From Lysobacter sp. (lineage in GTDB: Bacteria > Pseudomonadota > Gammaproteobacteria > Xanthomonadales > Xanthomonadaceae): 64,000 nucleotides of DNA. Each line of letters opens with the position of its first letter. The first letter of the stretch is position 1. Both the position numbers and the translations under genes were made by a program. The notes under the pieces were generated by a model. That model made no database searches, was not told where the DNA came from, and was given only the letters and a program-made list of their open reading frames with translations. Shown piece after piece: positions 24,067-52,239 of this stretch. The stretch spans positions 94,509-158,508 of the forward strand of contig JBIQLI010000001.1 in NCBI GenBank assembly GCA_044464395.1, in the 5' to 3' direction.

Positions 24067-24070
<4 letters not shown>

Positions 24071-25707: not shown

Positions 25708-27540
<1,833 letters not shown>

Positions 27541-27631: not shown

Positions 27632-27675
27632 GCCTGGCCCGGGCGGGAATCCGCGCCGATGCAACGTTCCAGGCT

Positions 27676-27691
27676 TGGCACGCATCCTGCA
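27676..27691 (+). promoter_or_regulatory. Sigma54 (-24/-12) promoter
   Basis: TGGCACGCATCCTGCA compared with consensus TGGCACG-N4-TTGCA. GG is at 27677-78 and GC at 27689-90, with exact 12-nt register. The first ATG downstream is the adaptor gene start at 27731. Confidence 0.8.
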
Positions 27692-27730
27692 TGTACGGGA
27701 GGCAAGCCCCCCGCAGGACACCCCCGCCGC

Positions 27731-29011: not shown

Positions 29012-29021
29012 CCAAAAAGAC

Positions 29022-29044
29022 AGCCGACCACGGGTCGGCTCTAC
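29022..29044. repeat. REP-like element inside the operon (adaptor-ATPase intergenic)
   Basis: AGCCGACCACGGGTCGGCTCTAC. Confidence 0.75.
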
Positions 29045-29056
29045 GGGAGAAGCAAC

Positions 29057-29773: not shown

Positions 29774-29785
29774 GGAGCCCACGCC

Positions 29786-31102
29786 ATGTTCGCCTACTAC
29801 TTCGACCTGGCCTTGCGCAGCTTCCGCCGCAACAAGGCCCTGACCACGCTGATGGTGCTGGCGATCGCGCTGGGCATCGGCGCCAGCATGACCACGCTCA
29901 CCGTGTTCCACGTGCTGTCCGGCGATCCGCTGCCGGGCAGGAGCGGCCAGCTCTATTACGTGCAGTTGGACGCCGGCTCGATGGACGGCTACCAGCCCGG
30001 CGAGGAGCCGGACACCCAGCTCACCCGCTATGACGCGGAGGAATTGCTGCGGCAGGCGAAGGGCGACCGCCAGGCGCTGATGACCGGTGGCAGCGTCGCG
30101 GTGACCCCGGCCAAGCAGGGCCTGGATCCGTTCTACAGCGACGTGCGCTACACCAGCGCGGATTTCTTCGCGATGTTCGGCACCCCGTTCCTTTACGGAC
30201 AGGGCTGGACCGGCGCGGAGGACGTGCGCCGCGAACGCGTCGTGGTGTTGTCCAGGGCCCTGAACGACAAGCTTTTCGGCGGCGCCGACAGCACTGGCCG
30301 GACCGTGCGCCTGGACCAGTCGGATTTCCGCGTCGTCGGCGTGCTCGACGACTGGCGCCCGACCCCGCGCTTCTACGACCTCAACTCCAACCGCTACGGC
30401 GCCGCCGAGCAGGCGTTCCTGCCGTTCTCCACCTCGCGCGACCTGAAGATGTCGCGCAACGGCAGCATGAACTGCTGGCGCAACGCCAGCCAGAGCGACG
30501 ACCCCGAGGGCGAGACCGGCGTCAACGCGCCCTGCACCTGGCTGCAATACTGGGTGGAACTGGGCACCCCGGCCAAGGCCGACGCCTACCGGCAGTACCT
30601 GCGCAACTACTCCGACCAGCAGCGCGCCGGCGGGCGCTTCGAGCGGCCCACCAACGTGCGCCTGCGTTCGGTGATGGAGTGGCTGGACTTCAACGAAGTG
30701 GTGCCGGGCGACGTGCGCCTGCAGGTATGGCTGGCGTTCGGCTTCCTGGGCGTGTGCCTGCTCAATACGGTCGGCCTGCTGCTGGCGAAGTTCCTGCGCC
30801 GCTCGAGCGAAATCGGCGTGCGTCGCGCGCTGGGCGCCTCGCGCCGGGCGATCTTCGCCCAGTGCCTGGTCGAAGCCGGCACCGTCGGCCTGGCCGGCGG
30901 CCTGCTCGGCCTCGGGCTGGCCCAGCTCGGCCTGTGGGCCGTGCGCCAGCAGCCGGTGAGCTACGCGGACCTGGTCCACCTGGATCCGCTGATGCTCACG
31001 ACCACCTTCGTGCTCGCGATCTTCGCCAGCGTGCTGGCCGGCCTGGTGCCGGCGTGGCAGGCCTGCCAGGTCACCCCCGCCATGCAGCTCAAGTCGCAGT
31101 AA
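29786..31102 (+). CDS. MacB/FtsX-type ABC permease, type A (438 aa)
   Basis: TM1, a periplasmic domain and a 3-TM FtsX domain. It shares the N-terminal block …GDPLPGRSGQLYY with 33647..34963 and 40634..41944. Confidence 0.88.
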   Translation: MFAYYFDLALRSFRRNKALTTLMVLAIALGIGASMTTLTVFHVLSGDPLPGRSGQLYYVQLDAGSMDGYQPGEEPDTQLTRYDAEELLRQAKGDRQALMTGGSVAVTPAKQGLDPFYSDVRYTSADFFAMFGTPFLYGQGWTGAEDVRRERVVVLSRALNDKLFGGADSTGRTVRLDQSDFRVVGVLDDWRPTPRFYDLNSNRYGAAEQAFLPFSTSRDLKMSRNGSMNCWRNASQSDDPEGETGVNAPCTWLQYWVELGTPAKADAYRQYLRNYSDQQRAGGRFERPTNVRLRSVMEWLDFNEVVPGDVRLQVWLAFGFLGVCLLNTVGLLLAKFLRRSSEIGVRRALGASRRAIFAQCLVEAGTVGLAGGLLGLGLAQLGLWAVRQQPVSYADLVHLDPLMLTTTFVLAIFASVLAGLVPAWQACQVTPAMQLKSQ

Positions 31103-31123
31103 CGACTTCCCCGGAGACCCCAC

Positions 31124-32350
31124 ATGGAACTGCGCCCCATCCTTTCCACGCTGCGCCGGCACAAGACCGCGGCCGCGTTGATCGTGCTCGAGATCGCGGT
31201 CAGCTGCGCCATCATCTGCAACGCCCTGTTCCTGATCGGCGGGCGGCTCGAGCGCATGGACCGGCCGACCGGAATGGCCGAGGACGAGATCGTCCGCATC
31301 CAGCTCACCGGCATCGGCCAGGACGAGAACGCCGCCGCCCTCACGGCAACCGACCTGGCCGCGCTGCGCGCGTTGCCAGGGGTCAAGTCGGCCAGCGCCA
31401 CCAACATGGTCCAGTTCGGCGGCAGTTCCTGGAACACAGGCGTCAACCTGAGCCCGGACCAGACCCAGATCAGCCTCAGCGCGGCGATGTACCTGGGCGA
31501 CGAGAAGCTGCCTGAAACCATGGGCCTGACCCTGGTGAAGGGCCGCACCTTCAACCCGGACGAGATGATCGATTTCGAGACGGCCAACGCACCCGGCAGC
31601 GACGTGCAGATCCCGTCCGTGATCGTCACCAGCGCCATGGCCGAAAAGCTGTGGCCCGGCGAGGATCCGCTGGGCAAGGTGATCTACGGCGGCGACGAGA
31701 ACGGCATCAAGGTCGTCGGCGTGGTCGACAAGCTCGCCCGGCCGAACGACATCGGCGGGCCGGACGCCTACTACTACTCGATGATCTACCCGATCAAGGT
31801 CCCCTACACGGTCGGCGGCAACTACCTGATCCGGGTCGATCCGGCGCGCCGCGCCGAGACCCTGAAGGCCGCCGTGGAGGTGCTCGAGCGCAACGGCCCG
31901 AACCGGATCATCCTCGACCAGCAGACGCTCGAGGAAATGCGCGCCGCCAATTACCAGTCCGACAAGGCGATGGCCTGGATGCTGGCGACCGTGTGCGTGC
32001 TGCTGCTCGTGATTACCGCGCTGGGCATCGTCGGGCTGGCCAGCTTCTGGGTCGCGCAGCGGACCAAGCAGATCGGCGTGCGCCGCGCGCTGGGCGCGAC
32101 CCGCGGCCAGATCCTGCGCTACTTCCAGACCGAGAACTTCCTGCTGGCGACGCTCGGCATCGTGATCGGCATGATGCTCGCGTTCGGCCTCAACCAGCTG
32201 ATGATGGAACGCGCCTCGCTGCCGCGCCTGCCGGCGCTGTACCTGCCGATCGGCGCGATCGTGCTATGGCTGCTCGGCCAGCTCTCGGTCCTCGGCCCCG
32301 CCCGCCGCGCCGCCGCCGTCCCCCCCGCCGTCGCCACCCGCAGCGTCTGA
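31124..32350 (+). CDS. MacB/FtsX-type ABC permease, type B (408 aa)
   Basis: Same architecture as type A. The N-terminus resembles 32443..33642 and 39426..40631 (…LRRHK…IVLEIAVSCAI…). Confidence 0.88.
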   Translation: MELRPILSTLRRHKTAAALIVLEIAVSCAIICNALFLIGGRLERMDRPTGMAEDEIVRIQLTGIGQDENAAALTATDLAALRALPGVKSASATNMVQFGGSSWNTGVNLSPDQTQISLSAAMYLGDEKLPETMGLTLVKGRTFNPDEMIDFETANAPGSDVQIPSVIVTSAMAEKLWPGEDPLGKVIYGGDENGIKVVGVVDKLARPNDIGGPDAYYYSMIYPIKVPYTVGGNYLIRVDPARRAETLKAAVEVLERNGPNRIILDQQTLEEMRAANYQSDKAMAWMLATVCVLLLVITALGIVGLASFWVAQRTKQIGVRRALGATRGQILRYFQTENFLLATLGIVIGMMLAFGLNQLMMERASLPRLPALYLPIGAIVLWLLGQLSVLGPARRAAAVPPAVATRSV

Positions 32351-32375
32351 CCAACTCCCGAAGAGAGGCCTTTCC

Positions 32376-32400
32376 CTTCTCCCCGCCCCGCGGGGAGAAG
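32376..32400. terminator. Hairpin between convergent permease genes
   Basis: CTTCTCCCC-GCCCCGC-GGGGAGAAG, followed by a second small hairpin GCCCCGAAGGGGC. Confidence 0.5.
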
Positions 32401-32442
32401 GTGCCCCGAAGGGGCGGATGAGGGGCGCTTCGGGACTTGCCC

Positions 32443-33642
32443 TCAGCCCCCTCCGACCCCCACCGCCACCACCCCCATCGCCCGCCGGATCGGCGCCAGG
32501 ATCGCAACCTGCCCCAACGCCATCATCCCCAGGGCGCCCGCCAGTGCGGGCGCCAACGGCATCGACGGCGTCCCCAGCCACCCGGTGAGCACCACGCTCA
32601 GACCGATCGCGCAGCCAAGGCCGATGGCTGCGCCCAGGCCCGTGACCAGCATGTTCTCCAGGCGGAAATACCACGCGATATCGCGACGCCGCGCCCCCAG
32701 CGCACGCCGGATCGCGATCGTCTTGCGTCGCTTTTCGATCCAGTAGCTCGACAGGCCGCCGACGCCACCCGCGACGACCAGCGCCAGGATCACGCCCACG
32801 CTGGCGAGAAGCCGGACCACGGCCTGGTCGAACGCAAAGTAGTCGGCGCGCAACTGCGCCAGGCGCGTGCCCGACCACGCGAGGCCGTGCGGCGTGGACC
32901 GGGTCACCGAGGCGATGGCTTCCTCTAGCAGGTTCGGCGACGCATCGTTGTCCGCGCGCAGGACCAGATGTGAGGCAAGCGGACCGCCCGGAGGTGCGGG
33001 AATGAACGCCACGAGCCCCGCTTGGCCGGGTTCGGAAATCGAAGGCGGCAGTACGTCCGCCGCGATGCCGACCACGGTGAACGCGCGACCGGAAATCCGG
33101 ACCTGCTGCCCTGGCACCGCCCCCAATCGCGTCGCCAGCCGCTCGGCGAGCACCACCGTATCGGCCTGTTGCAGTGGCCTGACCGAAGGCGCTGCAAAGT
33201 CCGCGGGCGCGAATCCGCGCCCGGCCAGGATGCGCGCGCCGAGCATTTCCATGAAGCCCGGGCTGCCGTTGTAGACGGCGGCGTCTTCGCTGCGCGGCAA
33301 CACGCCATCGACGCTCGATACCCGGAAATTCCCGGGGCGGCCGTCGAAGGGCAGGGCATTCACGTAGCCGGCCGCGTCAACGCCCGGCAAGGCCAGGGCG
33401 GCTTGCATTGCACGTTGGCGATCCGCGTCATCGACCTTGCCCTGCAATGCCTGTACATCGAGTACGAGCAGGCGCGCGTCGTCGATGCCGGACGGTAGTG
33501 CCTGGAGCGCGAATCGGTGGCGCACCAGGTTGATGCCATTGCCGGCAACGGCGCAGGCGATCGCGACCTGCAGCGCCAGCAGGATCACGATCGGCCAATG
33601 CCGTCGCAGCGCACGCAGGATCAGCGGCAGGTCGGTCGGCAT
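32443..33642 (-). CDS. MacB/FtsX-type ABC permease, type B (399 aa)
   Basis: MPTDLPLILRALRRHWPIVILLALQVAIACAV…, with a C-terminal FtsX 3-TM domain. Confidence 0.88.
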   Translation of the reverse strand: MPTDLPLILRALRRHWPIVILLALQVAIACAVAGNGINLVRHRFALQALPSGIDDARLLVLDVQALQGKVDDADRQRAMQAALALPGVDAAGYVNALPFDGRPGNFRVSSVDGVLPRSEDAAVYNGSPGFMEMLGARILAGRGFAPADFAAPSVRPLQQADTVVLAERLATRLGAVPGQQVRISGRAFTVVGIAADVLPPSISEPGQAGLVAFIPAPPGGPLASHLVLRADNDASPNLLEEAIASVTRSTPHGLAWSGTRLAQLRADYFAFDQAVVRLLASVGVILALVVAGGVGGLSSYWIEKRRKTIAIRRALGARRRDIAWYFRLENMLVTGLGAAIGLGCAIGLSVVLTGWLGTPSMPLAPALAGALGMMALGQVAILAPIRRAMGVVAVGVGGG

Positions 33643-33646
33643 GCGC

Positions 33647-34963
33647 TCAGTCCACCTTGACCTGGATGGCAGGCTCCACTGCGCTGGCCCGCCATGCCGG
33701 ATACATGGCCGCGGCCACGGTCGCCACTACCGATACACCCGTCGCCGCCAGGAATACGTGGGTGTCGACACTGGCGAGCTGCAGGAATCCCTTCGGCAAC
33801 CAGCCGGATACGCGGACGCCGCCGAAGGTGATCGCAAGCCCTGCCATGCTGCCCAGCAGTCCCAGCACCACGGCTTCGACCCCGAACTGGCGCAGGATGT
33901 CCTTGCGCGATGCTCCCAGTGCGCGCCGAATCCCGATTTCATGGGTCCGGCGCAGGAACATCGCCAACAGCAGCCCGGTGGCGTTCACCAGGCACAGGAG
34001 GAGGAATCCGCCGGCCAGCAACAATCCCAGGCGCACCCCACCTGGCACGTTGGCCTTGCGGCGAAGGAGTTCCCGGACGTTCTCGACCCGGAGTTCCTGG
34101 TCGGCGGCAAGCCAGCCTTCCGTGCGGCCGCGGGGCACCAGCGCAGCCAGGTCCTGTTCCAATGCCTTGCGGTCGCGGGTGCTGTCGAGCAAGGCCCACG
34201 CCTGCAGCGAGGCGCAGCGCGAGCGCGGCAAGTCCGCCGCGGAAACGTCGGGGGACACGCCGGGAGGGCAACTACGCGCCATGAACAGGTCGGTGCCCAG
34301 CGCACCGACGCTGGCCAGGGGCAGGTACAGGTTGTCCGCGGGCGCGTAGGCGCCCACGCTGAGATCGTAGAAGTGCGGTACTGGATGCCAATCGCCGGCG
34401 ACGCCGATCACGCGGAAGGTCTTGCCGGCCACCTCCAGGGTACGCCCGATCGGATCCGCACCGCCGAACAGCTGCGTGGCCAAAGGTGTGCTGACCACCG
34501 CCAACGGTTGCCCGGAAGCCTCCTCGTCCGCGGTCCAGGCGCGGCCGCGACGGAGCGGCACCTCGAATGCAGGAAAGAACGACGCGTTGGTGAACCGCAC
34601 GAGATCAGCCGTCCGCCGGCTTCCGTCCCCGGCCGCGATCCCGCCGAATCCGTAAGTCAGACCGACCCATTGGGCGCCCCTGCCTGCCTCGCGGAAGCGC
34701 GCAAATGCCGGGAAGGAAACGAAGCCGGGATCGCTGTCCGACCGAACACCAGACGCGGAGATGTGCAGCAACCGCTGGCTGCGATCGGGGATGGGGTCTC
34801 CCGCAAGTGCATGCATCAACGAATAGGCCGTCATGAAAACGCCGACGCCCGCGCCGACGATCAGCGCGGTCAGCGCGACGTACCAGGGATGCTTCCGGCA
34901 ATTGCGCCACGCCAACCCCAGGTAGTACCGGTACAGCGGCAGGCTGGATTGCACGGATGGCAT
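33647..34963 (-). CDS. MacB/FtsX-type ABC permease, type A (438 aa)
   Basis: …ALIVGAGVGVFMTAYSLMHALAGDPIPDRSQRLLHI…, with a C-terminal FtsX domain. The gap to the next permease gene is 4 nt. Confidence 0.88.
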   Translation of the reverse strand: MPSVQSSLPLYRYYLGLAWRNCRKHPWYVALTALIVGAGVGVFMTAYSLMHALAGDPIPDRSQRLLHISASGVRSDSDPGFVSFPAFARFREAGRGAQWVGLTYGFGGIAAGDGSRRTADLVRFTNASFFPAFEVPLRRGRAWTADEEASGQPLAVVSTPLATQLFGGADPIGRTLEVAGKTFRVIGVAGDWHPVPHFYDLSVGAYAPADNLYLPLASVGALGTDLFMARSCPPGVSPDVSAADLPRSRCASLQAWALLDSTRDRKALEQDLAALVPRGRTEGWLAADQELRVENVRELLRRKANVPGGVRLGLLLAGGFLLLCLVNATGLLLAMFLRRTHEIGIRRALGASRKDILRQFGVEAVVLGLLGSMAGLAITFGGVRVSGWLPKGFLQLASVDTHVFLAATGVSVVATVAAAMYPAWRASAVEPAIQVKVD

Positions 34964-34968
34964 CGCGA

Positions 34969-35466
34969 TTACTCCGCGGCGGGAGTCGACCGCATCTCGC
35001 GCGTGCCGAGGAAAACGTCACGGTATGCGACGCTTGCCTTCAGCGAGTTGAAATATCGGTCCAGTTCCTGCTGGGTCGAATCGCAGTACGGGCAGGTACC
35101 GATGCGCGCGGGGGTCACGCGGACGACGCAATAGTCGGCGCCGCAATCACGCCAGCGCGCGAAATCCACGCCTTCGTCGAAGACGCATTCGCCCAGCACC
35201 GCAACCTTGTCGGCCAGGCGGCCCTTGCTGCCAGTCTCGATCGCGAGCGCCGCGCCCGGTGAATAGCCCAGCTCGCTGCTTGCGAATTCGCCGTGTTCGA
35301 ACACGTACACCTGCGGCGTTTGCGGCTCGAGACCACACTCGCGGAACGCGTCGGGATGGATGAAGACTTCGGTGGCCTCGGCAGCGGAGGTCGTGGCGGG
35401 CTGCGGCGGCGGCGAACAGGCGGAAAGCCCGACGATGAGCAGGGCCAGGCAACGGATCGAGTGCAT
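34969..35466 (-). CDS. CPxC-motif lipoprotein of unrecognised family (paralog of 15408..15881)
   Basis: An AGGA-type SD precedes ATG 35466. Lipobox: MHSIRCLALLIVGLSA/C. It shares PQVYVF and …VVRVTPARIGTCPYCDSTQQELDRYFNS blocks with the paralog. The gap to the permease gene is 5 nt. Confidence 0.7.
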   Translation of the reverse strand: MHSIRCLALLIVGLSACSPPPQPATTSAAEATEVFIHPDAFRECGLEPQTPQVYVFEHGEFASSELGYSPGAALAIETGSKGRLADKVAVLGECVFDEGVDFARWRDCGADYCVVRVTPARIGTCPYCDSTQQELDRYFNSLKASVAYRDVFLGTREMRSTPAAE

Positions 35467-35560
35467 TTCCGATTTCCTTTCCATGGAAAGTGGAGGGGCC
35501 GGGACCAAGCGAGGTCGCCTCGGACAGGCCCCGGCGTTCCTTCGGAGGGGCGCGGAGCAA

Positions 35561-35590
35561 AATCTAGTGATAATGGGAGGGAGCGGTCAA
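35561..35590 (-). promoter_or_regulatory. Putative sigma70 promoter for the lipoprotein-permease operon
   Basis: On the minus strand: TTGACC (35590-35585), N18, TAGATT (35566-35561). Confidence 0.35.
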
Positions 35591-35605
35591 CCTGAAAGCG
35601 GTTCC

Positions 35606-36955
<1,350 letters not shown>

Positions 36956-36957
36956 CG

Positions 36958-38283
36958 ATGCGCCTGCGCCAGCGCATCCCGCTGAGCCTCCAATTCGGCG
37001 CGTTGGCGCTGCTCTACCTGCTCGCGGGCGCCACCCTGGCGGTGGTGCTGGCGCGCTGGCTTGCCCCGGTGTACGCAGCGCTGCTCGCGACCGCGTTGCT
37101 CGCCCCGCTGCTGCTGTACCACGCGCGGCAACTGTTCGCGCCGATGAACGCCCTGTTCCGCGCGCTCGCCGGCAGCGTCGCCAGCTTCCGCGACGGCGAC
37201 TTCTCCTTCAACCTCACCTGGGCCGGGCACGACGAACTGGGCGAGCTGGTCGCCAGCCACAACGCGCTGGGCGACGTGCTGCGCGAGCAGCGCCAGGGCC
37301 TGGTGCAGCGCGAACTGCTGCTGGACACCATGGTCCAGAACACGCCGGTGGCGATGGTGCTGGTGGATCCGTCGCGACGCGTGGTGCTGGCCAACCTGTC
37401 CGCGCGCAAGCTGCTCGGCGACGGGCACAAGCTGGAAGGCCTGTCGTTCGACGCAATTCTCGAAGCCACGCCGCCGGCCGTGCAGGAGGCGTTCGAACGC
37501 GGCGGCGACGGCATGTTCACCCTCGGCGAATCCGGCGAGGACGACAACGGCAACGAGGACATCTACCACCTCGCGCGGCGCCACTTCCGCCTCAACGGCC
37601 GCCGCCACGAGCTGGTGCTGCTGCGTCAGCTCACCGCCGAGCTGCGCCGGCAGGAAGTGCAGACCTGGAAGAAGGTGATCCGGGTGATCAGCCACGAACT
37701 GAACAACTCGCTGGCGCCGATCGCCTCGCTGGCCCACTCCGGCGCGGAGCTGCTGCGCCGCGGCCAGACCGAGCGCCTGCCGACCGCGCTGGCCACCATC
37801 GAGGAACGCGCCCGGCACCTGGAAGGCTTCATCCGCGACTACGCGCGCTTCGCCAAGCTGCCCGCGCCGCGGCTGCAGCCGGTGGCCTGGAACCGCTTCA
37901 TCGCCCAGCTGCGCAGCCAGGTGGAGTTCGCCGCGCAGGGCGCCATCGACGACCGCATCGGCCGCTTCGACCCGGCCCAGCTCGAGCAGGCGCTGCTCAA
38001 CCTGCTGAAGAACGCGCACGAAGCCGGCGGCGACCCGGCCGCCGTGGCCCTGCACCTGCGCCGCGCCGGCAACGGCTGGCGGATCGACGTGCTGGACCGC
38101 GGCACCGGCATGAACGAGGCCGTCCTGGCCAACGCGCTGCTGCCGTTCTATTCCACCAAGCGCCATGGCACCGGCCTGGGCCTGGCGCTGGCCCGCGAGA
38201 TCGCCGAGGCGCACGGGGGGCGGATCTCGCTGGTGAACCGGGAGGGTGGGGGGTTGAGTGTTTCGATCTTTTTGCCGGATTGA
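36958..38283 (+). CDS. Sensor histidine kinase (2 TM - HAMP - PAS - HisKA - HATPase)
   Basis: ATG lies 2 nt after the regulator stop. H-box VISHELNNSLAPI, N box LLNLLKNAHEA, G boxes DRGTGM and GTGLGLAL. Confidence 0.9.
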   Translation: MRLRQRIPLSLQFGALALLYLLAGATLAVVLARWLAPVYAALLATALLAPLLLYHARQLFAPMNALFRALAGSVASFRDGDFSFNLTWAGHDELGELVASHNALGDVLREQRQGLVQRELLLDTMVQNTPVAMVLVDPSRRVVLANLSARKLLGDGHKLEGLSFDAILEATPPAVQEAFERGGDGMFTLGESGEDDNGNEDIYHLARRHFRLNGRRHELVLLRQLTAELRRQEVQTWKKVIRVISHELNNSLAPIASLAHSGAELLRRGQTERLPTALATIEERARHLEGFIRDYARFAKLPAPRLQPVAWNRFIAQLRSQVEFAAQGAIDDRIGRFDPAQLEQALLNLLKNAHEAGGDPAAVALHLRRAGNGWRIDVLDRGTGMNEAVLANALLPFYSTKRHGTGLGLALAREIAEAHGGRISLVNREGGGLSVSIFLPD

Positions 38284-38931
38284 TCAGAGAACCGGTTCGA
38301 CCAAGTGTTCCAGCGCCTGCAGCTCGCGCGTCCCCTGATACAGCTGTCCATCCACGATGAATGCCGGGACGCTCTCGATGCCCAGGCGCTTTGCCTCCGC
38401 AATGTCGGCATCGACGGCCGCACGGCTTCCGGTGTCTTCCATGCAGGACGAAAAGGCCGCGACGTCGGGCACGCCGGACGACCGTGCCATGGGGCTGAAG
38501 TCGCCTTCCAACTCCGGCAGGTCGGCGGAAAACAGCTTGGCCTGGAAGGCCTGGCGAACGCCCTGTTGCCCGGCACATTTGGCCGCGATCGCTGCGGCGT
38601 AGGCGGCTGCATGGATTTGCGTCAGGGGGTACTCGTAACGGATCACGGACAGCCGGCCCGGGTGCCGGGCCACCAGCGTCGACAGCTTCTCGTCCAGGTC
38701 CTTGCAAAAGGGACACTGGTAGTCGGAAAAAAGGACGATCCTGGCGCCCGCCCCGTCGGGCCCCATCGCCGGAATCCGGTTGTCGGCAAGCCTTGTCCAT
38801 CCGCTTACGGGCCGTGAGCCTGGAGCCGCGGTTGGCATCAATTCACGGCGTACCGCGACAACGGTCATCACGATTGCGCAGATCACAAGCACGCCAGTGG
38901 TGGCGTTCTGCGCCAAGCGGGAAGCATTCAT
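38284..38931 (-). CDS. Membrane-anchored DsbA-family thiol:disulfide oxidoreductase
   Basis: N-terminal TM segment (GVLVICAIVMTVVAV), active site FSDYQCPFCKD, and C-terminal …GIESVPAFIVDGQLYQG (cis-Pro region). Confidence 0.85.
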   Translation of the reverse strand: MNASRLAQNATTGVLVICAIVMTVVAVRRELMPTAAPGSRPVSGWTRLADNRIPAMGPDGAGARIVLFSDYQCPFCKDLDEKLSTLVARHPGRLSVIRYEYPLTQIHAAAYAAAIAAKCAGQQGVRQAFQAKLFSADLPELEGDFSPMARSSGVPDVAAFSSCMEDTGSRAAVDADIAEAKRLGIESVPAFIVDGQLYQGTRELQALEHLVEPVL

Positions 38932-38947
38932 GGTCTCTCCATCTGGC

Positions 38948-38970
38948 GCATCCCGGCGAGGCCGGGATGC
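38948..38970 (-). terminator. 10-bp-stem hairpin between the peptide genes and the dsbA-like gene (putative attenuator)
   Basis: On the minus strand: GCATCCCGGC-CTC-GCCGGGATGC, 10 nt after the peptide stop. No T-tract follows. Confidence 0.4.
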
Positions 38971-38979
38971 GTTTTGCGA

Positions 38980-39162
38980 TCAGCGTTCCTTGCAACTGCA
39001 CCCAGACGCGCTCGCAGTGCATCCGTGGGTGCAATAGCAGGTGGTGTTCCCACCTTCGCATCGGTTGTAGAGAATCGACTGCCTTGGCGCGGCGTGCGCG
39101 GAAATGAGGCCGCACGCCAGGATCAGGGAAACCGAAACTCCGTTGACGATTTTCCGTGTCAT
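38980..39162 (-). CDS. Small secreted 6-Cys peptide, family 2, copy 2 (precursor 60 aa)
   Basis: GGAGA lies 6 nt upstream of ATG 39162. Sequence: MTRKIVNGVSVSLILACGLISAHA/APRQSILYNRCEGGNTTCYCTHGCTASASGCSCKER. Confidence 0.6.
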   Translation of the reverse strand: MTRKIVNGVSVSLILACGLISAHAAPRQSILYNRCEGGNTTCYCTHGCTASASGCSCKER

Positions 39163-39184
39163 GGGCTGTCTCCGGGTTTCCTGG

Positions 39185-39370
39185 TTACGCACAAGTGCAG
39201 GAGGTTTCATCGGCCGAGCAGCCGCCTTTGCATTCGCACTTGCCCTTGCCATCGGTGCTTTCGCATTTCGCCTTGAGCAGGGAGGCGCCCATGTGGGGGG
39301 TCGCAAAGGCGGCGGTGGCGCCCAGGCAGATGATCGAAATCGCGATCAGGTTCACCATTTTCCTTGGCAT
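39185..39370 (-). CDS. Small secreted 6-Cys peptide, family 2, copy 1 (precursor 61 aa)
   Basis: AAGGAGA lies 6 nt upstream of ATG 39370. Sequence: MPRKMVNLIAISIICLGATAAFA/TPHMGASLLKAKCESTDGKGKCECKGGCSADETSCTCA. Confidence 0.6.
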   Translation of the reverse strand: MPRKMVNLIAISIICLGATAAFATPHMGASLLKAKCESTDGKGKCECKGGCSADETSCTCA

Positions 39371-39425
39371 GCAGGATCTCCTTTCAGGTTGTTGCGGGAC
39401 AATCGTCCGCTTGTCGGCGGACGGG

Positions 39426-40631
39426 CTAACGCCTCTTGACGGCTTGTGCAGGGTCGATCGCGGTCGCCTTGAGTGAAGGCCCCAGGCTTGAGAGCTGCAC
39501 GACAAAAACAATGAGAAGTGCACACATCGCGACGGAAGACGGCGCCAATGCTTGTACTTCCAGGACCTTCATCAGTACGCGATGCAAGGCCAGCGCCGCG
39601 GGTGCGCCGAGAAGGATGGAGATGATCGCGAGCGCGGCGCTTTCGGCCTGGAATCCCAGGATGATCCTGGATTTCGTGGCGCCCAGTGCCCTTCGTATCG
39701 CGATCGAGCGGCGCGACCGCCTGACGCGGAACGTGGCCAGTCCGCCGATCCCGATGGCAGTCACCAGCAGGAGGGATAGCGTGGCTCCAAGCAGCAAGGT
39801 GGACTTTTCGACATCCCGTTTGAAAAACGCAGAGCGGGATTCCGCGAAGGTCCTGGCTTTTGCGCCGCCGGCAAATGCGGAAAGCCGCTCCTCCATCGCC
39901 CGCATGGTCCGTCCCCGAAGTGGCCCCATCGTCCGGAATAGAAGCACTCCGCGGTCAACAGACGGCACTTCGGGCAGCAGCATCGAATAGTGATTGACGC
40001 TTCCGGCGCCTTGGACGGGGTGTGGGCGCAGCAGTCGCTTGACGACCCCGACCACTCGCAGCGATGCGCCGGAGTCGGTGAACACCAGGCGTCCGGTCGC
40101 ATCTGGTGTACCGAACAGTTGTCGAGCCAGGGATTCGGTGAGGATCGTTGCGGCTGGACCCGCTGCGCCCTCCGATCCCTGTTCGACGTACTCGTTGGGA
40201 AGGAAGTCCCGCCCTGCCACGAGCTCCAGGCCCATGGTTCCGATGGCGCCAGGTCCGCCCTCGAATTGGCTGACCGATATGCCGAGGGCCTGGTCATCGG
40301 TACCGGGTCCTGGAAAGATCGAGCCCACCAGATCGGAACCAAATGGCAGGGCGCGAACCCACGCCGCGGAGGCAACCCCGGGGACCGACCTGGCTTGCAG
40401 GATCGCTTCCCCGGAAGTAAAGCCTTGTCGTCCCGTGCCGAAGTCCTCGAGCTCCACGATGCCCACCACGCCCTCCCCGATGCCGCTGGGCTCGCTCATC
40501 AGCGAAAAGCTGCTGGCAACGACGCTCAGCACATTGGCCGCAACCGCGAAGGTCAGCGCGAGTTCCAGGACCAGCATGGCAGTCGTCAATTTGCCGGCGA
40601 GCAGTGCCTGGACGATGGGATGGCGGCGCAT
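39426..40631 (-). CDS. MacB/FtsX-type ABC permease, type B (401 aa)
   Basis: ATG 40631 lies 2 nt after the upstream permease stop. MRRHPIVQALLAGKLTTAMLVLELALTFAVA…, with a C-terminal FtsX domain. Confidence 0.85.
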   Translation of the reverse strand: MRRHPIVQALLAGKLTTAMLVLELALTFAVAANVLSVVASSFSLMSEPSGIGEGVVGIVELEDFGTGRQGFTSGEAILQARSVPGVASAAWVRALPFGSDLVGSIFPGPGTDDQALGISVSQFEGGPGAIGTMGLELVAGRDFLPNEYVEQGSEGAAGPAATILTESLARQLFGTPDATGRLVFTDSGASLRVVGVVKRLLRPHPVQGAGSVNHYSMLLPEVPSVDRGVLLFRTMGPLRGRTMRAMEERLSAFAGGAKARTFAESRSAFFKRDVEKSTLLLGATLSLLLVTAIGIGGLATFRVRRSRRSIAIRRALGATKSRIILGFQAESAALAIISILLGAPAALALHRVLMKVLEVQALAPSSVAMCALLIVFVVQLSSLGPSLKATAIDPAQAVKRR

Positions 40632-40633
40632 GC

Positions 40634-41944
40634 TCAAAGATCCTTCAACCGCACGGCCGGATCGACCCTGCACGAATTCCACGCAGGCACAGACGCCGCG
40701 CTGATCGAGGCAAGTACGGCGAGCACCAGCGTGGATGCGATCGTGACGCCATCCAGCCTCGCGAAGGGGGACAAATCGCCGTCGGCTTGTCGCACCAGCC
40801 AAAGACCCGCACTGGAGGCAGCGGCGGCTAGCAGCGCCGCTCCCGCCCCAATGGCAAGGCCCTCAAGGCAGTGTTCGACGAAGATCTGCTTCCGGCTGGC
40901 GCCCAACGCACGACGCAGCCCGACTTCGGCGCCTCGGGACTCGAACTTCGCCAGCATGAGGCCGCAGGCATTGAGGATGCAGACGGCCAGGAAGACAAAG
41001 GCGAGCATCAGCTTGACCCTGAGGCCGTCCGAAATGACATCCACCTGGGCAAGTCTTTGGCGGACATTCAACAGCGGTGCGTCGTCGGGTATCCGGACGC
41101 TGCGGCCGAGGTGCCGCTGCGCTTCGACGTAGCGTGCGAGAAAGTCGCTGTAGCGGGGCACCTCGCCCGGCGCCAGCTGGACCCAGAACTGGAGCCAGGT
41201 GCATTGGTCGCCGGTCTTCGATCCCGGCCCCCAGCAGGCCATGTTGCCGATGGTTCGCATGTCCAGGTCGAGTGCGGTCGTCAACGGAAGGAAGAACTGG
41301 TCCTCCACGCCGAACATCGCGTTTCCGGAAGAGGCATAGAAAAGCGGGCGCGGTGCCCAATCCGCAGCCACGCCGATCACGGTGAACTGCGTGTCATCGA
41401 GCGCCAGGGTATGCCCGACCACGTCGGTGGACCCGAACAGCCTCACTGAGAGGGCCCTCCCGAGCACGACCACGCGCCTGCGAGAAGCATCGTCCACGCG
41501 CGACCAGCCTGATCCGGACACAAATGGAACGCCAAACATGCTGAAGAATCCGGCGCTCGTGAATCGCCCGCTTGCGTGCACGCGCTTTCTCGCCTTTCCG
41601 TTGTCCAGGACGACAGTCGCCCTCCCCGCGGACATCGCAGCCTGGTGGGTTGCCTCGTCCGCCTGCAGCAGATTGCGGGCATCGATCCAGGTGAAGCCTT
41701 CCGTGGGATCGAGGCCGGTCTCGTTTGCGAATCCGGCGGGCGATGCATCCAGGTGGGGATAGAACAGCTGCTGGCTACGGCCCGGCAATGGATCTCCGGA
41801 GATCCCGTGAAGGATCGCCACCATCGCCATGCTTGCGGCCGTCCCCAGGCCGATGGTCAGAACGGCCAACGCGGTGACCCAGCCATCGCGCCTGAGGGCA
41901 CGCAACGTCATGCCGCCGATATGGAGAGGCAGGCCGCGGCTCAT
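40634..41944 (-). CDS. MacB/FtsX-type ABC permease, type A (436 aa)
   Basis: …ILHGISGDPLPGRSQQLFYPHLD…. ATGA overlap with the ATPase gene. Confidence 0.88.
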   Translation of the reverse strand: MSRGLPLHIGGMTLRALRRDGWVTALAVLTIGLGTAASMAMVAILHGISGDPLPGRSQQLFYPHLDASPAGFANETGLDPTEGFTWIDARNLLQADEATHQAAMSAGRATVVLDNGKARKRVHASGRFTSAGFFSMFGVPFVSGSGWSRVDDASRRRVVVLGRALSVRLFGSTDVVGHTLALDDTQFTVIGVAADWAPRPLFYASSGNAMFGVEDQFFLPLTTALDLDMRTIGNMACWGPGSKTGDQCTWLQFWVQLAPGEVPRYSDFLARYVEAQRHLGRSVRIPDDAPLLNVRQRLAQVDVISDGLRVKLMLAFVFLAVCILNACGLMLAKFESRGAEVGLRRALGASRKQIFVEHCLEGLAIGAGAALLAAAASSAGLWLVRQADGDLSPFARLDGVTIASTLVLAVLASISAASVPAWNSCRVDPAVRLKDL

Positions 41945-42669
41945 GTCAGGGGCAGCGCGTCACCATGCATCATCGCGGGATCGGATTCGCTGACGACGCA
42001 TCCGTCGAGCAACCGCACCCGCCGCCCCGCCCGCGCCGCCAACACCGGATCGTGCGTCACCATCACGATCGTCGTGCCGCGTTCGTTGAGCCGTTCCAGC
42101 AACTCCAGGATTTCCTGCGCCATGGCCGAGTCCAGGTTGCCGGTCGGCTCGTCGGCCAGCAGCAGGCTCGGCTCGGTCACGATCGCCCGTGCGATCGCGG
42201 CACGCTGCTGCTGGCCACCCGAGAGCTGGGACGGGAAATGCTCCATCCGCGTGCCCAGCCCCACCATGTGAAGTGCCGCATCCGTGCGGCGCCTGCGCTC
42301 GGCCGCCGGCATGCCGCCATAGCGCAGCGGCAGTTCGACGTTGTTGCGCAGATCCAGCTCCGGGATCAGGTTGAACGACTGGAAGACGAAGCCGATGCTG
42401 CGCGCGCGCAACTCGCTGCGCTGCCGGTCCGAGAGCGCCTCCACCGGCTGTCCGTCCAGCAGGTAGCTGCCGGCGCTGGCGGTCTCCAGCAGTCCGGCAA
42501 TGCTCAGGAAGGTGGTCTTGCCCGAACCCGAGGGCCCGGTCACGGCGACGAACTCGCCCGGCTTCACCACAAGGTCGAACCCGCGCAGCGCATGGGTTTC
42601 GACCAGGTCGGTGCGGTAGGCCATCGAGATGCCACGCATCTCGAGGATCGGCGTCGCTTCCTTGCGCAT
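41941..42669 (-). CDS. ABC transporter ATP-binding protein (MacB/LolD type)
   Basis: GGAGGA lies 3 nt upstream of ATG 42669. GPSGSGKTT, LSGGQQQR and [12 protein letters not shown]. Confidence 0.9.
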   Translation of the reverse strand: MRKEATPILEMRGISMAYRTDLVETHALRGFDLVVKPGEFVAVTGPSGSGKTTFLSIAGLLETASAGSYLLDGQPVEALSDRQRSELRARSIGFVFQSFNLIPELDLRNNVELPLRYGGMPAAERRRRTDAALHMVGLGTRMEHFPSQLSGGQQQRAAIARAIVTEPSLLLADEPTGNLDSAMAQEILELLERLNERGTTIVMVTHDPVLAARAGRRVRLLDGCVVSESDPAMMHGDALPLT

Positions 42670-42890: not shown

Positions 42891-43103
42891 ATGACCAACC
42901 AGAACCGTCACCAAGGCGGCGGCAATCGCCAGGAAGGCAACAACCGCCAGGACAGCGGCAATCGCCAGCAGCAGGCCAGCGGCCGCCAGGAAGGCATGGG
43001 TCGCGAAGGCAAGGGTAGCCAGCAGGCTTCCGGCCGCCAGGGCGGCGACCAGGAAAACCAGGGCCGCCAGGGCAACCAGAGCAGCAATACCCGCAATCGC
43101 TGA
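42891..43103 (+). CDS. Small Gln/Gly/Arg/Asn-rich hydrophilic protein (stress-hydrophilin-like, unassigned)
   Basis: Strong SD (AAGAGGAGAG) and a rho-independent terminator directly downstream. 70 aa with no hydrophobic core: MTNQNRHQGGGNRQEGNNRQDSGNRQQQASGRQEG…. Confidence 0.6.
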   Translation: MTNQNRHQGGGNRQEGNNRQDSGNRQQQASGRQEGMGREGKGSQQASGRQGGDQENQGRQGNQSSNTRNR

Positions 43104-43114
43104 CCTCGATGGCG

Positions 43115-43152
43115 AACGACCGGAGGGCGCTGCCCTCCGGTCGTTTTCTTTT
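43115..43152 (+). terminator. Rho-independent terminator
   Basis: AACGACCGGAGGG-CGCTG-CCCTCCGGTCGTT followed by TTCTTTT. Confidence 0.8.

Positions 43153-51543: not shown

Positions 51544-51547
<4 letters not shown>
50315..51547 (+). CDS. MacA/HlyD-family periplasmic adaptor
   Basis: TM segment, lipoyl motif [26 protein letters not shown], a coiled coil, and an acidic C-terminal tail. Confidence 0.88.

Positions 51548-52235
<688 letters not shown>

Positions 52236-52239
<4 letters not shown>

What the first reader, a model, noticed from the sequence alone, without database searches (positions are those of the whole stretch)
38284..42669. Second peptide family (6 Cys, CxC-rich) embedded in an ATPase / paired-permease / DsbA-like operon
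On the minus strand the gene order is ABC ATPase, type A permease, type B permease, two small genes, then a membrane-anchored DsbA-like oxidoreductase (CPFC). The upstream genes are joined by an ATGA overlap and a 2-nt gap.

Both small genes (39370-39185 and 39162-38980) have (A)AGGAGA-type SDs 6 nt upstream and Sec signal peptides (…AAFA/TP and …SAHA/AP). The mature peptides share C-x(6,8)-C-x-C-x3-C-x6-C-x-C:
- KCESTDGKGKCECKGGCSADETSCTCA
- RCEGGNTTCYCTHGCTASASGCSCKER

This motif is unrelated to the family-1 peptides at 14.8 kb. Six cysteines in about 27 residues, next to a dedicated DsbA, suggests a three-disulfide knot. Alternatively, the CxC spacing is metallothionein-like. Finding the same design (Sec peptide, private thiol-redox protein, MacB-type transporter) twice, with different peptides, argues that the association is functional rather than accidental.
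Basis: partly seen in the sequence, partly recalled or inferred. Interest (0 to 1): 0.86.

Follow-up and report, generated by a model that had tools for sequence, protein, structure and literature searches.

The report
Six-cysteine secreted peptide pair cassette
A five-to-six gene cassette in a high-GC gammaproteobacterium encodes two small secreted six-cysteine peptides of an undescribed family, their own membrane-anchored disulfide-forming enzyme and a MacB-type ABC transporter, and the same gene set recurs in unrelated lineages and is swapped between strains as one block, which marks it as a dedicated peptide production and handling system rather than a chance neighbourhood.

Summary
On the minus strand lie an ABC ATPase, two MacB_PCD+FtsX permeases, two 60-61 aa Sec-type pre-peptides and a membrane-anchored DsbA-like protein (CPFC).

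The peptides are real genes: pN/pS is 0.12-0.5 against syntenic alleles. They belong to an unnamed family of about 20 clusters at 50% identity. In 25 aligned members all six Cys are invariant, with the pattern C-x6/8-C-x-C-x3-C-x6-C-x-C. Pfam, NCBIfam, PDB and Foldseek give no match.

Nine loci in about seven lineages carry peptides (1-4, usually a type-1 then type-2 pair) next to a MacB-type permease, split or fused. Eight of them also show the DsbA-like gene. Gene order differs between loci. 80 loci with generic DsbA relatives have neither peptides nor FtsX genes.

Against a near-identical strain (flanks 98-100%), the block 38271-42126 is only 70-85% identical, so the cassette moved as a unit.

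Best reading: Sec export, oxidation by the private DsbA, then handling in the periplasm by the MacB-type pump (expulsion and/or self-protection), as for E. coli enterotoxin STII. No adaptor gene lies in any of these operons, and the peptides' biological activity is unknown. I rate it a new variant of a known kind.

The parts
41941..42669 (-). ABC transporter ATP-binding subunit (242 aa from the ATG at 42669; the longest ORF starts at 42693)
   Evidence: PF00005 E 5e-30. The best NCBIfam matches are DarD, YbbA, FtsE, MacB and LolD-type ATPases, all below their cut-offs. The same 242-aa gene is called in public assemblies. Its 5' two-thirds lies outside the divergent block; its 3' end lies inside.
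40634..41944 (-). MacB-type permease A (436 aa)
   Evidence: MacB_PCD E 1e-23 plus FtsX E 2e-11. It aligns to the N-terminal half of the ADOP duplicated permease TIGR03434. Its start overlaps the ATPase stop (ATGA).
39426..40631 (-). MacB-type permease B (401 aa)
   Evidence: FtsX E 6e-10 plus MacB_PCD E 1e-7. It aligns to the C-terminal half of ADOP. Homologues drop from 71% to about 32% identity. In the comparison with the L008 allele its periplasmic part has the highest pN/pS (0.40) of the permease segments computed.
39185..39370 (-). pep1, type-1 pre-peptide (61 aa; core CESTDGKGKCECKGGCSADETSCTCA)
   Evidence: ORF and Shine-Dalgarno sequence. The exact sequence occurs on 43 contigs. pN/pS is 0.12 against L008 and 0.31 against L007. 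Family profile hits.
38980..39162 (-). pep2, type-2 pre-peptide (60 aa; core CEGGNTTCYCTHGCTASASGCSCKER)
   Evidence: ORF and Shine-Dalgarno sequence. pN/pS is 0.12 against L008 and 0.51 against L007. A type-2 gene follows a type-1 gene in 7 of 9 loci.
38947..38971 (-). GC-rich hairpin (11-bp stem, 3-nt loop) directly after the pep2 stop and before the dsbA-like gene. It may act as a partial terminator or a stabiliser of the transcript's 3' end.
   Evidence: Folding energy -26 kcal/mol, z -2.9. GC hairpins with unrelated sequence sit at the same place in L018, L176 and L178, and the same hairpin is in L008. L007 and L025 have none. The function is inferred.
38284..38931 (-). Membrane-anchored DsbA-like thiol:disulfide oxidoreductase (215 aa, CPFC)
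   Evidence: Thioredoxin_4 E 8e-20 and DSBA E 2e-15. The CP[FY]C site, a second Cys pair and the proline of the presumed cis-Pro loop (P189) are invariant in 6 orthologues. The closest solved structure is C. diphtheriae DsbA 4pwo (E 2e-11); ScsC 4gxz scores 2e-7.
38271..42126 (.). Recombination block: 3' end of the ATPase gene, both permeases, both peptides and the dsbA-like gene. It is exchanged as one unit between near-identical genomes.
   Evidence: Window against L008: 70-85% nucleotide identity inside the block and 98-100% in most flanking windows on both sides. pS is 0.43-0.50 inside and 0.09 in the flanks. GC falls to 61-66% against 69.5% for the window.

Best explanation
This is a self-contained cassette that makes and handles a pair of small disulfide-rich extracytoplasmic peptides. 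The proposed steps are:

1. pep1 and pep2 are translated with Sec-type signal peptides and exported to the periplasm (inferred from the sequence).
2. The cassette's own inner-membrane-anchored DsbA-like oxidase (CPFC) oxidises the six invariant cysteines to three disulfides. The product is a compact all-beta mini-protein (inferred from homology, invariance and co-inheritance).
3. The ATPase with the heteromeric MacB-type permease pair does not carry substrates across the inner membrane. It acts on the folded peptides from the periplasmic side by mechanotransmission.
4. It either expels them through an adaptor and outer-membrane duct supplied in trans, as MacAB-TolC does for Sec/DsbA-dependent enterotoxin STII, or keeps them off the producer's envelope as self-protection, as YknXYZ does for SDP. 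It may do both.
5. The released peptides act outside the cell, most likely as a two-peptide antagonistic toxin (bacteriocin-like) or as a signal.

Steps 1-3 are the core claim. The direction of transport and the biological activity are the weakest parts.
For: Domain content and tight gene packing.

The peptides are coding and under purifying selection: pN/pS 0.12-0.5.

The family has six invariant Cys, a conserved leader Asn and a conserved Gly in 25 members.

The same gene set recurs in different orders:
- Split permeases: L007, L008, L018, L025, L038, L176.
- Fused 807-809 aa permeases: L178 (ABC, peptide, DsbA, permease) and L180 (peptides, permease).
- Sources.

Negative control: 80 loci with DsbA-like relatives of 28-40% identity carry no motif peptides and no FtsX genes.

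Permeases, peptides and DsbA are inherited as one divergent block between genomes whose flanks are 98-100% identical. The ATPase gene stays conserved apart from its 3' end. This fits specificity residing in the periplasm-exposed parts.

The DsbA-like protein is closest to a membrane-anchored CPFC oxidase.

AF2 on the mature peptide gives core pLDDT of about 85 and four short strands.

Precedents in the literature:
- STII: Sec, then DsbA, then MacAB-TolC. Also YknXYZ/SDP, AS-48EFGH and Aat/dispersin (PMC5985334).
- Private thiol-disulfide oxidoreductases in bacteriocin operons: sublancin bdbA/B, PedC and EntV (listed, not opened; the roles are from my own knowledge).

Adaptor genes that could serve in trans lie within 10 kb on both sides: 27659-29011 and 50315-51547.
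Against: No adaptor (HlyD/MacA-type) or outer-membrane duct gene lies in the operon in any locus examined. Adaptor-less MacB relatives such as LolCDE, FtsEX and BceAB do other jobs.

The peptides are near neutral and rich in small residues. They are not cationic or amphipathic like typical membrane-active antimicrobial peptides.

No separate immunity gene is present.

No promoter was recognised.

Disulfide formation, secretion and activity are all untested.

In one MAG (L038) the type-2 gene is degraded while the type-1 gene is intact, so the two peptides are not strictly interdependent.

L180 shows no DsbA-like gene within its contig.
Confidence: 0.5

Rival explanations
1. The system provides immunity or sensing only. 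The adaptor-less ATPase and permease pair works like BceAB or YknYZ and removes the peptides from the producer's inner membrane or envelope. It may also report their flux. The peptides reach the outside by another route, or they stay in the periplasm.
For: None of the operons contains an adaptor gene. BceAB and LolCDE work without adaptors, and YknXYZ protects against a Sec-dependent peptide. In the Xanthomonadales-type loci the cassette sits beside a histidine kinase that has two transmembrane helices and almost no periplasmic loop (seen in the ORF translation). That is the Bce-type arrangement in which the pump does the sensing. The periplasmic domain of permease B diverges fastest.
Against: That kinase belongs to a generic MFP-ABC-FtsX-FtsX-RR-HK cassette found without peptides in other genera. 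It is absent from the other peptide loci on the contigs available. No sigma-54 promoter lies upstream of the operon. An outer-membrane route for a folded peptide would still be needed if the peptide acts outside the cell.
Confidence: 0.2
2. The peptides bind metals. They would be metallothionein-like thiolate ligands for Cu, Zn or Cd in the periplasm. The DsbA-like protein would act like ScsC to manage their redox state, and the pump would expel the metal-peptide complexes.
For: The peptides have CxC motifs and a Gly/Ser/Thr/Ala/Lys-rich composition. The DsbA-like protein also matches ScsC-type copper-resistance proteins (4gxz E 2e-7; 6nen and 6mhh about 2e-5). In L176 an ArsR-family HTH gene follows the DsbA-like gene. 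A heavy-metal P-type ATPase lies at 21896-24070 in the window.
Against: No metallothionein family matches in Pfam or NCBIfam. Known metallothioneins are cytoplasmic (from my own knowledge), while these peptides carry export signals into an oxidising compartment. The best structural relative of the redox protein is a membrane-anchored oxidase, not ScsC. No ScsB/DsbD-type reductant supplier and no metal regulator is conserved in the cassette. The P-type ATPase is 15 kb away and is not linked in other loci. Many members carry Trp or Tyr next to Cys.
Confidence: 0.12
3. The peptides are periplasmic regulators or cofactors of the FtsX-type complex, or of another envelope enzyme. Examples would be protease or hydrolase inhibitors, by analogy with FtsEX controlling periplasmic hydrolases. 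They would not be exported products.
For: Compact six-Cys mini-proteins are a common protease-inhibitor scaffold (from my own knowledge). FtsEX-type complexes act on periplasmic partners rather than transporting anything. The cassette has no adaptor.
Against: Tandem multiplication of peptide genes (up to four in L018) and a hairpin after the peptide genes fit a product made in excess rather than a stoichiometric subunit. No hydrolase or protease gene is conserved in the cassette.
Confidence: 0.08
4. The neighbourhood is accidental. The small ORFs are unrelated passengers, or not genes at all, beside an ordinary transporter and a housekeeping DsbA.
For: The window is unusually rich in MacB-type cassettes, with at least four. 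That raises the chance of adjacency.
Against: The ORFs are under purifying selection. All six Cys are invariant across 25 members. The association recurs in about seven lineages with rearranged gene orders. 80 control loci show none of it. The genes are inherited together as one recombination block.
Confidence: 0.03

Closest known systems
E. coli heat-stable enterotoxin STII (and STa) secretion: Sec, then DsbA, then MacAB-TolC
   Same: A small Cys-rich pre-peptide with a Sec signal is oxidised in the periplasm by a DsbA-family enzyme. A MacB-type ABC transporter then takes it up from the periplasmic side (PMC5985334).
   Different: In E. coli the Dsb enzyme and the pump are unlinked housekeeping genes, and the pump has a MacA adaptor and TolC. 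Here the peptides, oxidase and pump form one cassette. The permease is a heteromeric pair with a separate ATPase, and no adaptor is encoded in the operon. The peptides show no sequence similarity to ST toxins (no Pfam hit).
Bacteriocin operons with private thiol-disulfide oxidoreductases (sublancin sunA-sunT-bdbA-sunS-bdbB; pediocin PedC; EntV/DsbA)
   Same: A dedicated Dsb-type enzyme is encoded with, or needed for, a disulfide-containing secreted peptide (papers listed: PMC6391423, PMC4919988, PMC6606811; not opened, the roles are from my own knowledge).
   Different: Those systems are in Gram-positive bacteria and use double-glycine leaders with peptidase-containing ABC exporters (from my own knowledge), or in the case of EntV a general Sec route. 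Here the host is Gram-negative, the leader is Sec-type, and the ABC system is MacB-type and cannot move the peptide across the inner membrane.
YknWXYZ/SDP and AS-48EFGH (MacB-type transporters in toxin or bacteriocin self-protection)
   Same: A MacB-type ATPase and permease is associated with an endogenously produced, Sec-dependent or secreted peptide toxin and acts from outside the membrane.
   Different: Those systems include an adaptor (YknX, AS-48E-type). They are Gram-positive and have no Dsb gene in the module.
LolCDE and ADOP/YbbP-type duplicated permeases
   Same: The architecture is a heteromeric pair of MacB-fold permeases with a separate ATPase and no adaptor. The two permeases align to the two halves of ADOP TIGR03434, and fused versions accompany peptides in L178 and L180.
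   Different: LolCDE extracts lipoproteins. Only pep2 has a lipobox-like ILAC, and that Cys is not conserved in the family. The scores are far below the LolC/E and ADOP cut-offs.
Metallothioneins
   Same: High Cys content, CxC motifs and small-residue composition.
   Different: These peptides have an export signal and an adjacent oxidase-type Dsb enzyme. No family match was found, and many members contain aromatic residues.

Membership tests
MacB/FtsX-fold (type VII) ABC transporter | Cytoplasmic ABC ATPase subunit or domain | tested here: met
   PF00005 E 5e-30. The best NCBIfam neighbours are DarD, YbbA, FtsE, MacB and LolD ATPases.
MacB/FtsX-fold (type VII) ABC transporter | Permease with the FtsX four-helix module and a large periplasmic MacB core domain | tested here: met
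   Both permeases hit MacB_PCD and FtsX above the Pfam cut-offs.
MacAB-TolC-type tripartite efflux pump | Cognate periplasmic adaptor (MacA/HlyD family) encoded with the transporter | tested here: not met
   No HlyD-family gene lies in the operon in the window or in L001-L008, L018, L025, L038, L176, L178 or L180. Adaptor genes do exist elsewhere in the window: 15892-17151, 27659-29011 and 50315-51547.
MacAB-TolC-type tripartite efflux pump | Outer-membrane duct (TolC family) used for expulsion | not testable with these tools
   No TolC-like gene is in the cassette. Use of a duct supplied in trans can only be shown experimentally.
DsbA-family thiol:disulfide oxidoreductase | Thioredoxin fold with a DsbA-type helical insertion | tested here: met
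   PF13462 at 72 bits (cut-off 23) and PF01323 at 57.5 bits (cut-off 25.6). Matches to solved structures: 4pwo, 7unn, 3gyk, 4gxz.
DsbA-family thiol:disulfide oxidoreductase | CxxC active site and cis-Pro loop | tested here: met
   CPFC/CPYC is invariant and P189 (VP/TP) is invariant in 6 orthologues.
DsbA-family thiol:disulfide oxidoreductase | Oxidase activity, with reoxidation by DsbB or VKOR | not testable with these tools
   No DsbB or VKOR gene is in the cassette. The redox direction is inferred from the closest solved relative.
Heat-stable enterotoxin (ST) family | Sequence membership of the ST peptide families | tested here: not met
   No Pfam or NCBIfam hit for pep1 or pep2 at E up to 0.01. 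No Pfam hit for ten relatives at E up to 1 beyond noise.
Metallothionein | Match to a metallothionein family; cytoplasmic, no export signal | tested here: not met
   No family hit. All members have an N-terminal Sec-type leader.
Class II bacteriocin / class II microcin | Double-glycine leader cleaved by a C39-peptidase ABC exporter | tested here: not met
   The leader is Sec-type with an A-x-A site. The ABC system is MacB-type and has no peptidase domain.
RiPP (enzymatically modified peptide) | Modifying enzyme (radical SAM, YcaO, LanM and the like) encoded with the precursor | tested here: not met
   The only enzyme in the cassette is the DsbA-like protein. A related Cys module does occur beside PatG-like genes in a Nitrospira MAG.
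Knottin / inhibitor cystine knot | I-IV, II-V, III-VI disulfide connectivity with a threaded knot | not testable with these tools
   The AF2 model (core pLDDT about 85, four strands) gives no accessible coordinates. Foldseek found no PDB match.

The most novel reading that the evidence does not exclude
The motif C-x3-DG-x3-C-x-C-x3-C-x6-C-x-C may define a previously unrecognised, phylogenetically wide class of bacterial disulfide-knotted peptides. In this cassette form it would be a new type of Gram-negative two-peptide bacteriocin or signal. Maturation (a private DsbA), export and immunity (an adaptor-less heteromeric MacB-type pump) would be bundled together and exchanged between strains as a specificity unit.
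Probability: 0.3. Interest if true: 0.8.

Novelty: new variant of a known kind. Interest (0 to 1): 0.6.

Why it matters
Sec-dependent, Dsb-oxidised peptides handled by MacB-type pumps are known mainly from one medical example, the E. coli ST toxins, and there every component is a housekeeping gene.

A dedicated, portable cassette would add three things:
- A natural system for testing how MacB-fold transporters recognise folded peptide substrates from the periplasm. Specificity may lie in the permease periplasmic domains, because these co-vary with the peptides.
- A new family of very small, probably hyperstable three-disulfide scaffolds with their matching oxidase. This could be useful for producing peptides recombinantly.
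- A candidate class of Gram-negative peptide toxins or signals that current bacteriocin and RiPP mining tools would miss, since it has no double-glycine leader and no modifying enzyme.

Tried and rejected
- **Word-based homologue searches with each peptide.** They found only close relatives. The family appeared only with a profile search.
- **The search for related loci with the peptide alignment.** I replaced it with a degenerate DNA pattern scan of genome contigs. About three quarters of its 76 hits were Cys-rich repeats or out-of-frame matches.
- **Metagenome scan with the DsbA-like alignment.** It returned only generic relatives of 28-40% identity. I used these as a negative control instead.
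- **Permease B homologues at about 30% identity.** They belong to a generic MFP-ABC-FtsX-FtsX-sigma54 RR-HK cassette without peptides, so they say nothing about the peptides.
- **Sigma-54 promoter search.** Nothing lies upstream of the operon. The matches are at chance level, and the upstream alignment shows no conserved -24/-12 element.
- **Sigma-70 scan.** Nothing found.
- **Structure of the full pre-peptide.** pLDDT 66 and no Foldseek hit.
- **Structure of the mature peptide.** pLDDT 76.6 and still no hit.
- **PDB sequence search with the family profile.** Noise only.
- **PADLOC.** Only generic ATPase similarity.
- **Plasmid collection.** No match for the peptide or for permease B.
- **Lipoprotein reading.** The lipobox-like ILAC in pep2 is rejected, because that Cys is not conserved in the family.
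- **Family-1 171-aa protein as a thioredoxin-like partner.** Not supported.
- **Literature.** Five full-text searches found no description of the family or the cassette.

Full report
**1. The observation**

The minus strand between 42693 and 38284 carries six tightly packed ORFs:
- an ATPase, 42669/42693-41941;
- permease A, 41944-40634, overlapping the ATPase stop by ATGA;
- permease B, 40631-39426, after a 2-nt gap;
- pep1, 39370-39185, 61 aa;
- pep2, 39162-38980, 60 aa;
- a 215-aa protein with CPFC, 38931-38284.

Pfam gives ABC_tran for the ATPase, MacB_PCD plus FtsX for both permeases, and Thioredoxin_4/DSBA for the last protein. Neither peptide has a hit.

NCBIfam places the ATPase among the DarD, YbbA, FtsE, MacB and LolD type. 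It aligns the two permeases to the N- and C-terminal halves of the duplicated ADOP permease. All of these scores are below the curated cut-offs.

AGGAGA and GGAGA lie 6 nt before the two peptide start codons. Both peptides have a basic n-region, a hydrophobic core and an A-x-A site.

One correction: signal-peptidase cleavage would leave 36-38 residue peptides with a variable N-terminal stretch of about 10 residues, not about 27 residues.

**2. Are the small ORFs genes?**

The exact pep1 sequence is called as a gene in many public assemblies. The index lists it in 64 blocks of the collection, on 43 contigs. All copies are unnamed or labelled "hypothetical".

Two divergent syntenic loci keep both genes:
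- L008, with permease B 71% identical;
- L007, a JGI metagenome contig with the order ABC, FtsX, FtsX, peptide, peptide, DsbA.

Nei-Gojobori counts give pN/pS of 0.12 for each peptide against L008, and 0.31 and 0.51 against L007, with pS of 0.43-0.64. These values indicate coding sequence under purifying selection.

A crude scan of the whole window on both strands looked for 35-120 aa ORFs with a Sec-like leader and at least four Cys. It returns only the three family-1 peptides and these two, and all five lie next to MacB-type operons.

**3. The peptide family**

Word-based searches found only close relatives. A profile of five sequences searched against 1.84 billion representative proteins found 23 hits at E of 1e-3 or better. 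About 20 of them are 57-68 aa proteins matching end to end.

In an alignment of 25 members:
- the six Cys are invariant;
- an Asn in the leader (M-x-R-K-x-x-N) is nearly invariant;
- a Gly three residues before Cys2 is nearly invariant.

Two subtypes are evident:
- type 1: C-[STE]-S-x-D-G-x3-C, as in pep1;
- type 2: C-x-G-G-x3-C, as in pep2.

Nothing known matches the family:
- Pfam and NCBIfam give no hit.
- A PDB sequence search with the profile gives only noise.
- AlphaFold2 on the mature peptide with 22 aligned sequences gives pLDDT 76.6, about 85 over the Cys core, with four short strands.
- Foldseek finds nothing in the PDB. It has little power at this length.

**4. Is the link to the transporter and the DsbA-like gene real?**

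Contexts were recovered for divergent members:

| Locus | Gene content |
|---|---|
| L018/L019 | FtsX, four peptides alternating type 1 and type 2, DsbA-like |
| L176 | FtsX, FtsX, type 1, type 2, DsbA-like, then an ArsR-type HTH gene |
| L178 | ABC, type 2, DsbA-like, fused 807-aa double MacB_PCD/FtsX permease |
| L180 | two peptides, fused 809-aa permease; no DsbA-like gene within the contig |
| L025 (Luteimonas MAG) and L038 (gammaproteobacterial MAG) | ABC, permease A, permease B, type 1, type 2, DsbA-like, arranged as in the window |

L025 and L038 came from a degenerate DNA pattern for the type-1 core scanned over 185,579 species genomes.

All nine loci, in about seven lineages, carry peptides next to a MacB-type permease, and eight of them also show the DsbA-like gene. 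This holds whether the permease is split or fused and whatever the gene order. That pattern is the classical signature of functional coupling.

As a control, I fetched 80 metagenomic loci encoding DsbA-like relatives of 28-40% identity. None has a motif peptide or an FtsX gene.

Permease B homologues at about 30% identity belong to a generic cassette, MFP-ABC-FtsX-FtsX-sigma54 regulator-kinase. Lysobacter, Xanthomonas and others have it without peptides or DsbA.

**5. Inheritance as a unit**

L008 comes from a genome whose flanks are mostly 98-100% identical to the window, on the hemerythrin side and on the histidine-kinase side. Between 42126 and 38271 identity drops to 70-85%.

This block runs from the 3' end of the ATPase gene through both permeases and both peptides to the stop codon of the DsbA-like gene.

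- pS is 0.43-0.50 throughout the block and 0.09 in the flanks.
- pN/pS is 0.12 for the peptides, 0.21 for permease A, 0.34 for permease B (0.40 in its periplasmic part) and 0.31 for DsbA.

So two old alleles of the whole module circulate in one species and are exchanged by homologous recombination. The ATPase, apart from its 3' end, stays with the backbone. This fits specificity residing in the parts exposed to the periplasm.

It is not evidence of positive selection, since every gene in the block is under purifying selection.

The block is also lower in GC (61-66% against 69.5%) and in GC3.

**6. The redox protein**

It has an N-terminal hydrophobic anchor. CP[FY]C, a second conserved Cys pair and the proline of the presumed cis-Pro loop (P189) are invariant in six orthologues.

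Its best solved relatives are:
- Corynebacterium diphtheriae DsbA 4pwo, a membrane-anchored oxidase with the same CPFC, E 2e-11;
- ScsC-type copper-resistance proteins, which match more weakly (2e-7 to 2e-5).

An oxidase role is therefore favoured, but this rests on inference only.

**7. The transporter**

MacB-fold transporters do not carry substrates across the inner membrane. They act on periplasmic substrates by mechanotransmission. The paradigm peptide substrate is enterotoxin STII, which is exported by Sec, oxidised by DsbA and expelled by MacAB-TolC (PMC5985334). A Sec leader on the peptides is exactly what such a transporter requires.

The weak point is the missing adaptor. No HlyD/MacA-type gene lies in the operon in any locus. 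Adaptor-less relatives do other jobs:
- LolCDE extracts lipoproteins.
- FtsEX regulates hydrolases.
- BceAB senses and detoxifies peptide antibiotics.

Adaptor genes do lie within 10 kb on both sides in the window (27659-29011 and 50315-51547). The neighbouring generic cassette also has more permease genes than ATPase or adaptor genes, so parts may be shared. That is conjecture.

I therefore hold "acts on the peptides in the periplasm" with moderate confidence. Whether the result is expulsion, self-protection or both is left open.

**8. Extra anatomy**

An 11-bp GC hairpin (38947-38971; -26 kcal/mol, z -2.9) follows the pep2 stop directly. Hairpins with unrelated sequence sit at the same place in L018, L176 and L178, and the same hairpin is in L008. 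L007 and L025 have none.

A stem-loop after the structural genes suggests a transcript end or a stabiliser that raises peptide output relative to the downstream gene. This is a familiar arrangement in peptide and pilin operons (from my own knowledge). Its function here is inferred.

No promoter was recognised.

**9. What the peptides do**

This is not shown. Several features fit a secreted effector pair (bacteriocin-like toxin or signal) better than a housekeeping role:
- the paired subtypes, with type 1 followed by type 2 in 7 of 9 loci;
- tandem multiplication of the peptide genes;
- the private maturation enzyme;
- the strain-level allelic exchange.

There are also points against:
- The peptides are near neutral and rich in small residues, unlike membrane-active antimicrobial peptides.
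- No separate immunity gene exists.
- In L038 the type-2 gene is decayed (Cys3 codon changed to TGA, Cys4 changed to Gly) while the type-1 gene is intact.

The metallothionein-like reading keeps some weight because of the CxC motifs, the similarity to ScsC, and an ArsR-type neighbour in one locus. The export signal, the oxidase-type partner, the lack of any metallothionein family match and the absence of conserved metal genes all argue against it.

**10. Comparison with what is known, and novelty**

The system works like the STII route (Sec, Dsb, MacB) and like bacteriocin operons that carry their own thiol-disulfide oxidoreductase: sublancin bdbA/B, PedC and EntV. Those three papers were only listed and not opened; the roles are from my own knowledge.

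It is not a member of any of these families:
- There is no ST, metallothionein, class II bacteriocin or RiPP signature.
- The defining adaptor of a tripartite MacB pump is absent from the operon.

Five full-text searches found no description of the peptide family or the cassette.

I classify it as a new variant of a known kind: a new peptide family in a new bundled architecture, with a mechanism that is plausible by analogy.

**11.

Family 1 (14778-20234) is indeed three tandem Sec-type four-Cys peptides next to an adaptor, an ATPase and a fused MacB-type permease.

Its 171-aa protein has a CPSC motif but no detectable thioredoxin similarity (no Pfam hit; hhalign probability 0.65%; no PDB match). 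Its CxxC lies too close to the C-terminus for a standard thioredoxin fold.

So the recurrence of Sec peptides with a MacB-type transporter stands. The recurrence of a private thiol-redox protein is not established.

Noticed in passing
Loci L020, L055, L060 (Shewanella), L075, L034, L045, L093, L061, L022, L032, L044, L070, L087, L090; L043:2823-3119: The same six-Cys core (for example CSSRDGxKDCFCxGGCWRxxTDCGC) ends other kinds of small precursors in distant phyla, without ABC or FtsX neighbours. Examples are 105-108 aa secreted proteins in Shewanella and Saccharospirillaceae, and tandem 105-aa proteins in Anderseniella. In a Nitrospira MAG the precursor lies next to thioredoxin, an S8 peptidase and a PatG-domain protein. 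A core-only profile scores these at 13-36 bits and does not score the Cys-rich decoys. The module may be much more widespread than the cassette.
   Followed up: partly
window 14778-20234 (+): This is the family-1 locus. It holds three tandem Sec-type four-Cys peptides (C-x2-C-T-x-[YN]-P-D-G-x3-C-x2-C), a 171-aa secreted protein with CPSC but no thioredoxin similarity, a HlyD-type adaptor, an ABC ATPase and a fused 788-aa double MacB_PCD/FtsX permease.
   Followed up: partly
window 27659-38283: A generic cassette is conserved in Lysobacter and Xanthomonas without peptides. It comprises an adaptor, an ATPase, two FtsX permeases (+), then a 165-aa protein and two more FtsX permeases on the other strand, then a sigma-54 response regulator (35606-36955) and a kinase (36958-38283). 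The kinase has two transmembrane helices separated by about 5 residues, which is an intramembrane-sensing layout like BceS. A sigma-54-like site, TGGCACGCATCCTGC, lies at 27676-27690 near the adaptor gene's start.
   Followed up: partly
window 38283/38284: The kinase and the DsbA-like gene are convergent, and their stop codons abut with no intergenic base. One boundary of the recombination block lies exactly here.
   Followed up: partly
window 42891-43103 (+) and 43114-43146: A 70-aa ORF made almost entirely of Gln, Gly, Asn and Arg runs divergently from the ATPase gene. It has no Pfam hit and is followed by a 15-bp-stem terminator. It is called as a gene in public assemblies, with lengths from 65 to 70 aa.
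   Followed up: no
L038:4710-4890 (-): In one gammaproteobacterial MAG the type-2 peptide gene is degraded (Cys3 TGC changed to TGA, Cys4 changed to Gly) while the type-1 gene, the DsbA-like gene and the permeases are intact. This could be real decay or a MAG consensus error.
   Followed up: partly
L176:3260-3454: An ArsR/SmtB-family HTH gene directly follows the DsbA-like gene in one locus. It is the only hint of a metal-type regulator near any cassette.
   Followed up: no
window 50315-53459 and 55846-60147: There is a further MacAB-like system (adaptor at 50315-51547, a stretch with nucleotide similarity to the cassette's ABC ATPase gene at about 51796-52064, FtsX permease at 52161-53459) and an RND pump (adaptor at 55846-57015, AcrB-type at 57022-60147). 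Together with the other systems this makes the window unusually dense in envelope efflux systems.
   Followed up: no
window 12784-14615 and 25708-27540: In Lysobacter helvus the generic cassette sits between glmS and glmU-gtrA-atpC. In the window, glmU/gtrA (12.8-14.6 kb) and glmS (25.7-27.5 kb) are separated by the family-1 locus, a hybrid kinase and a heavy-metal P-type ATPase. This suggests the interval is a hotspot for insertions.
   Followed up: no
Genome-contig scan: The type-1 DNA pattern matches pep1, yet the scan of species-representative genomes did not return the window's own species. Either the representative genome lacks the cassette or the species is not in that release. This could not be resolved.
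   Followed up: no
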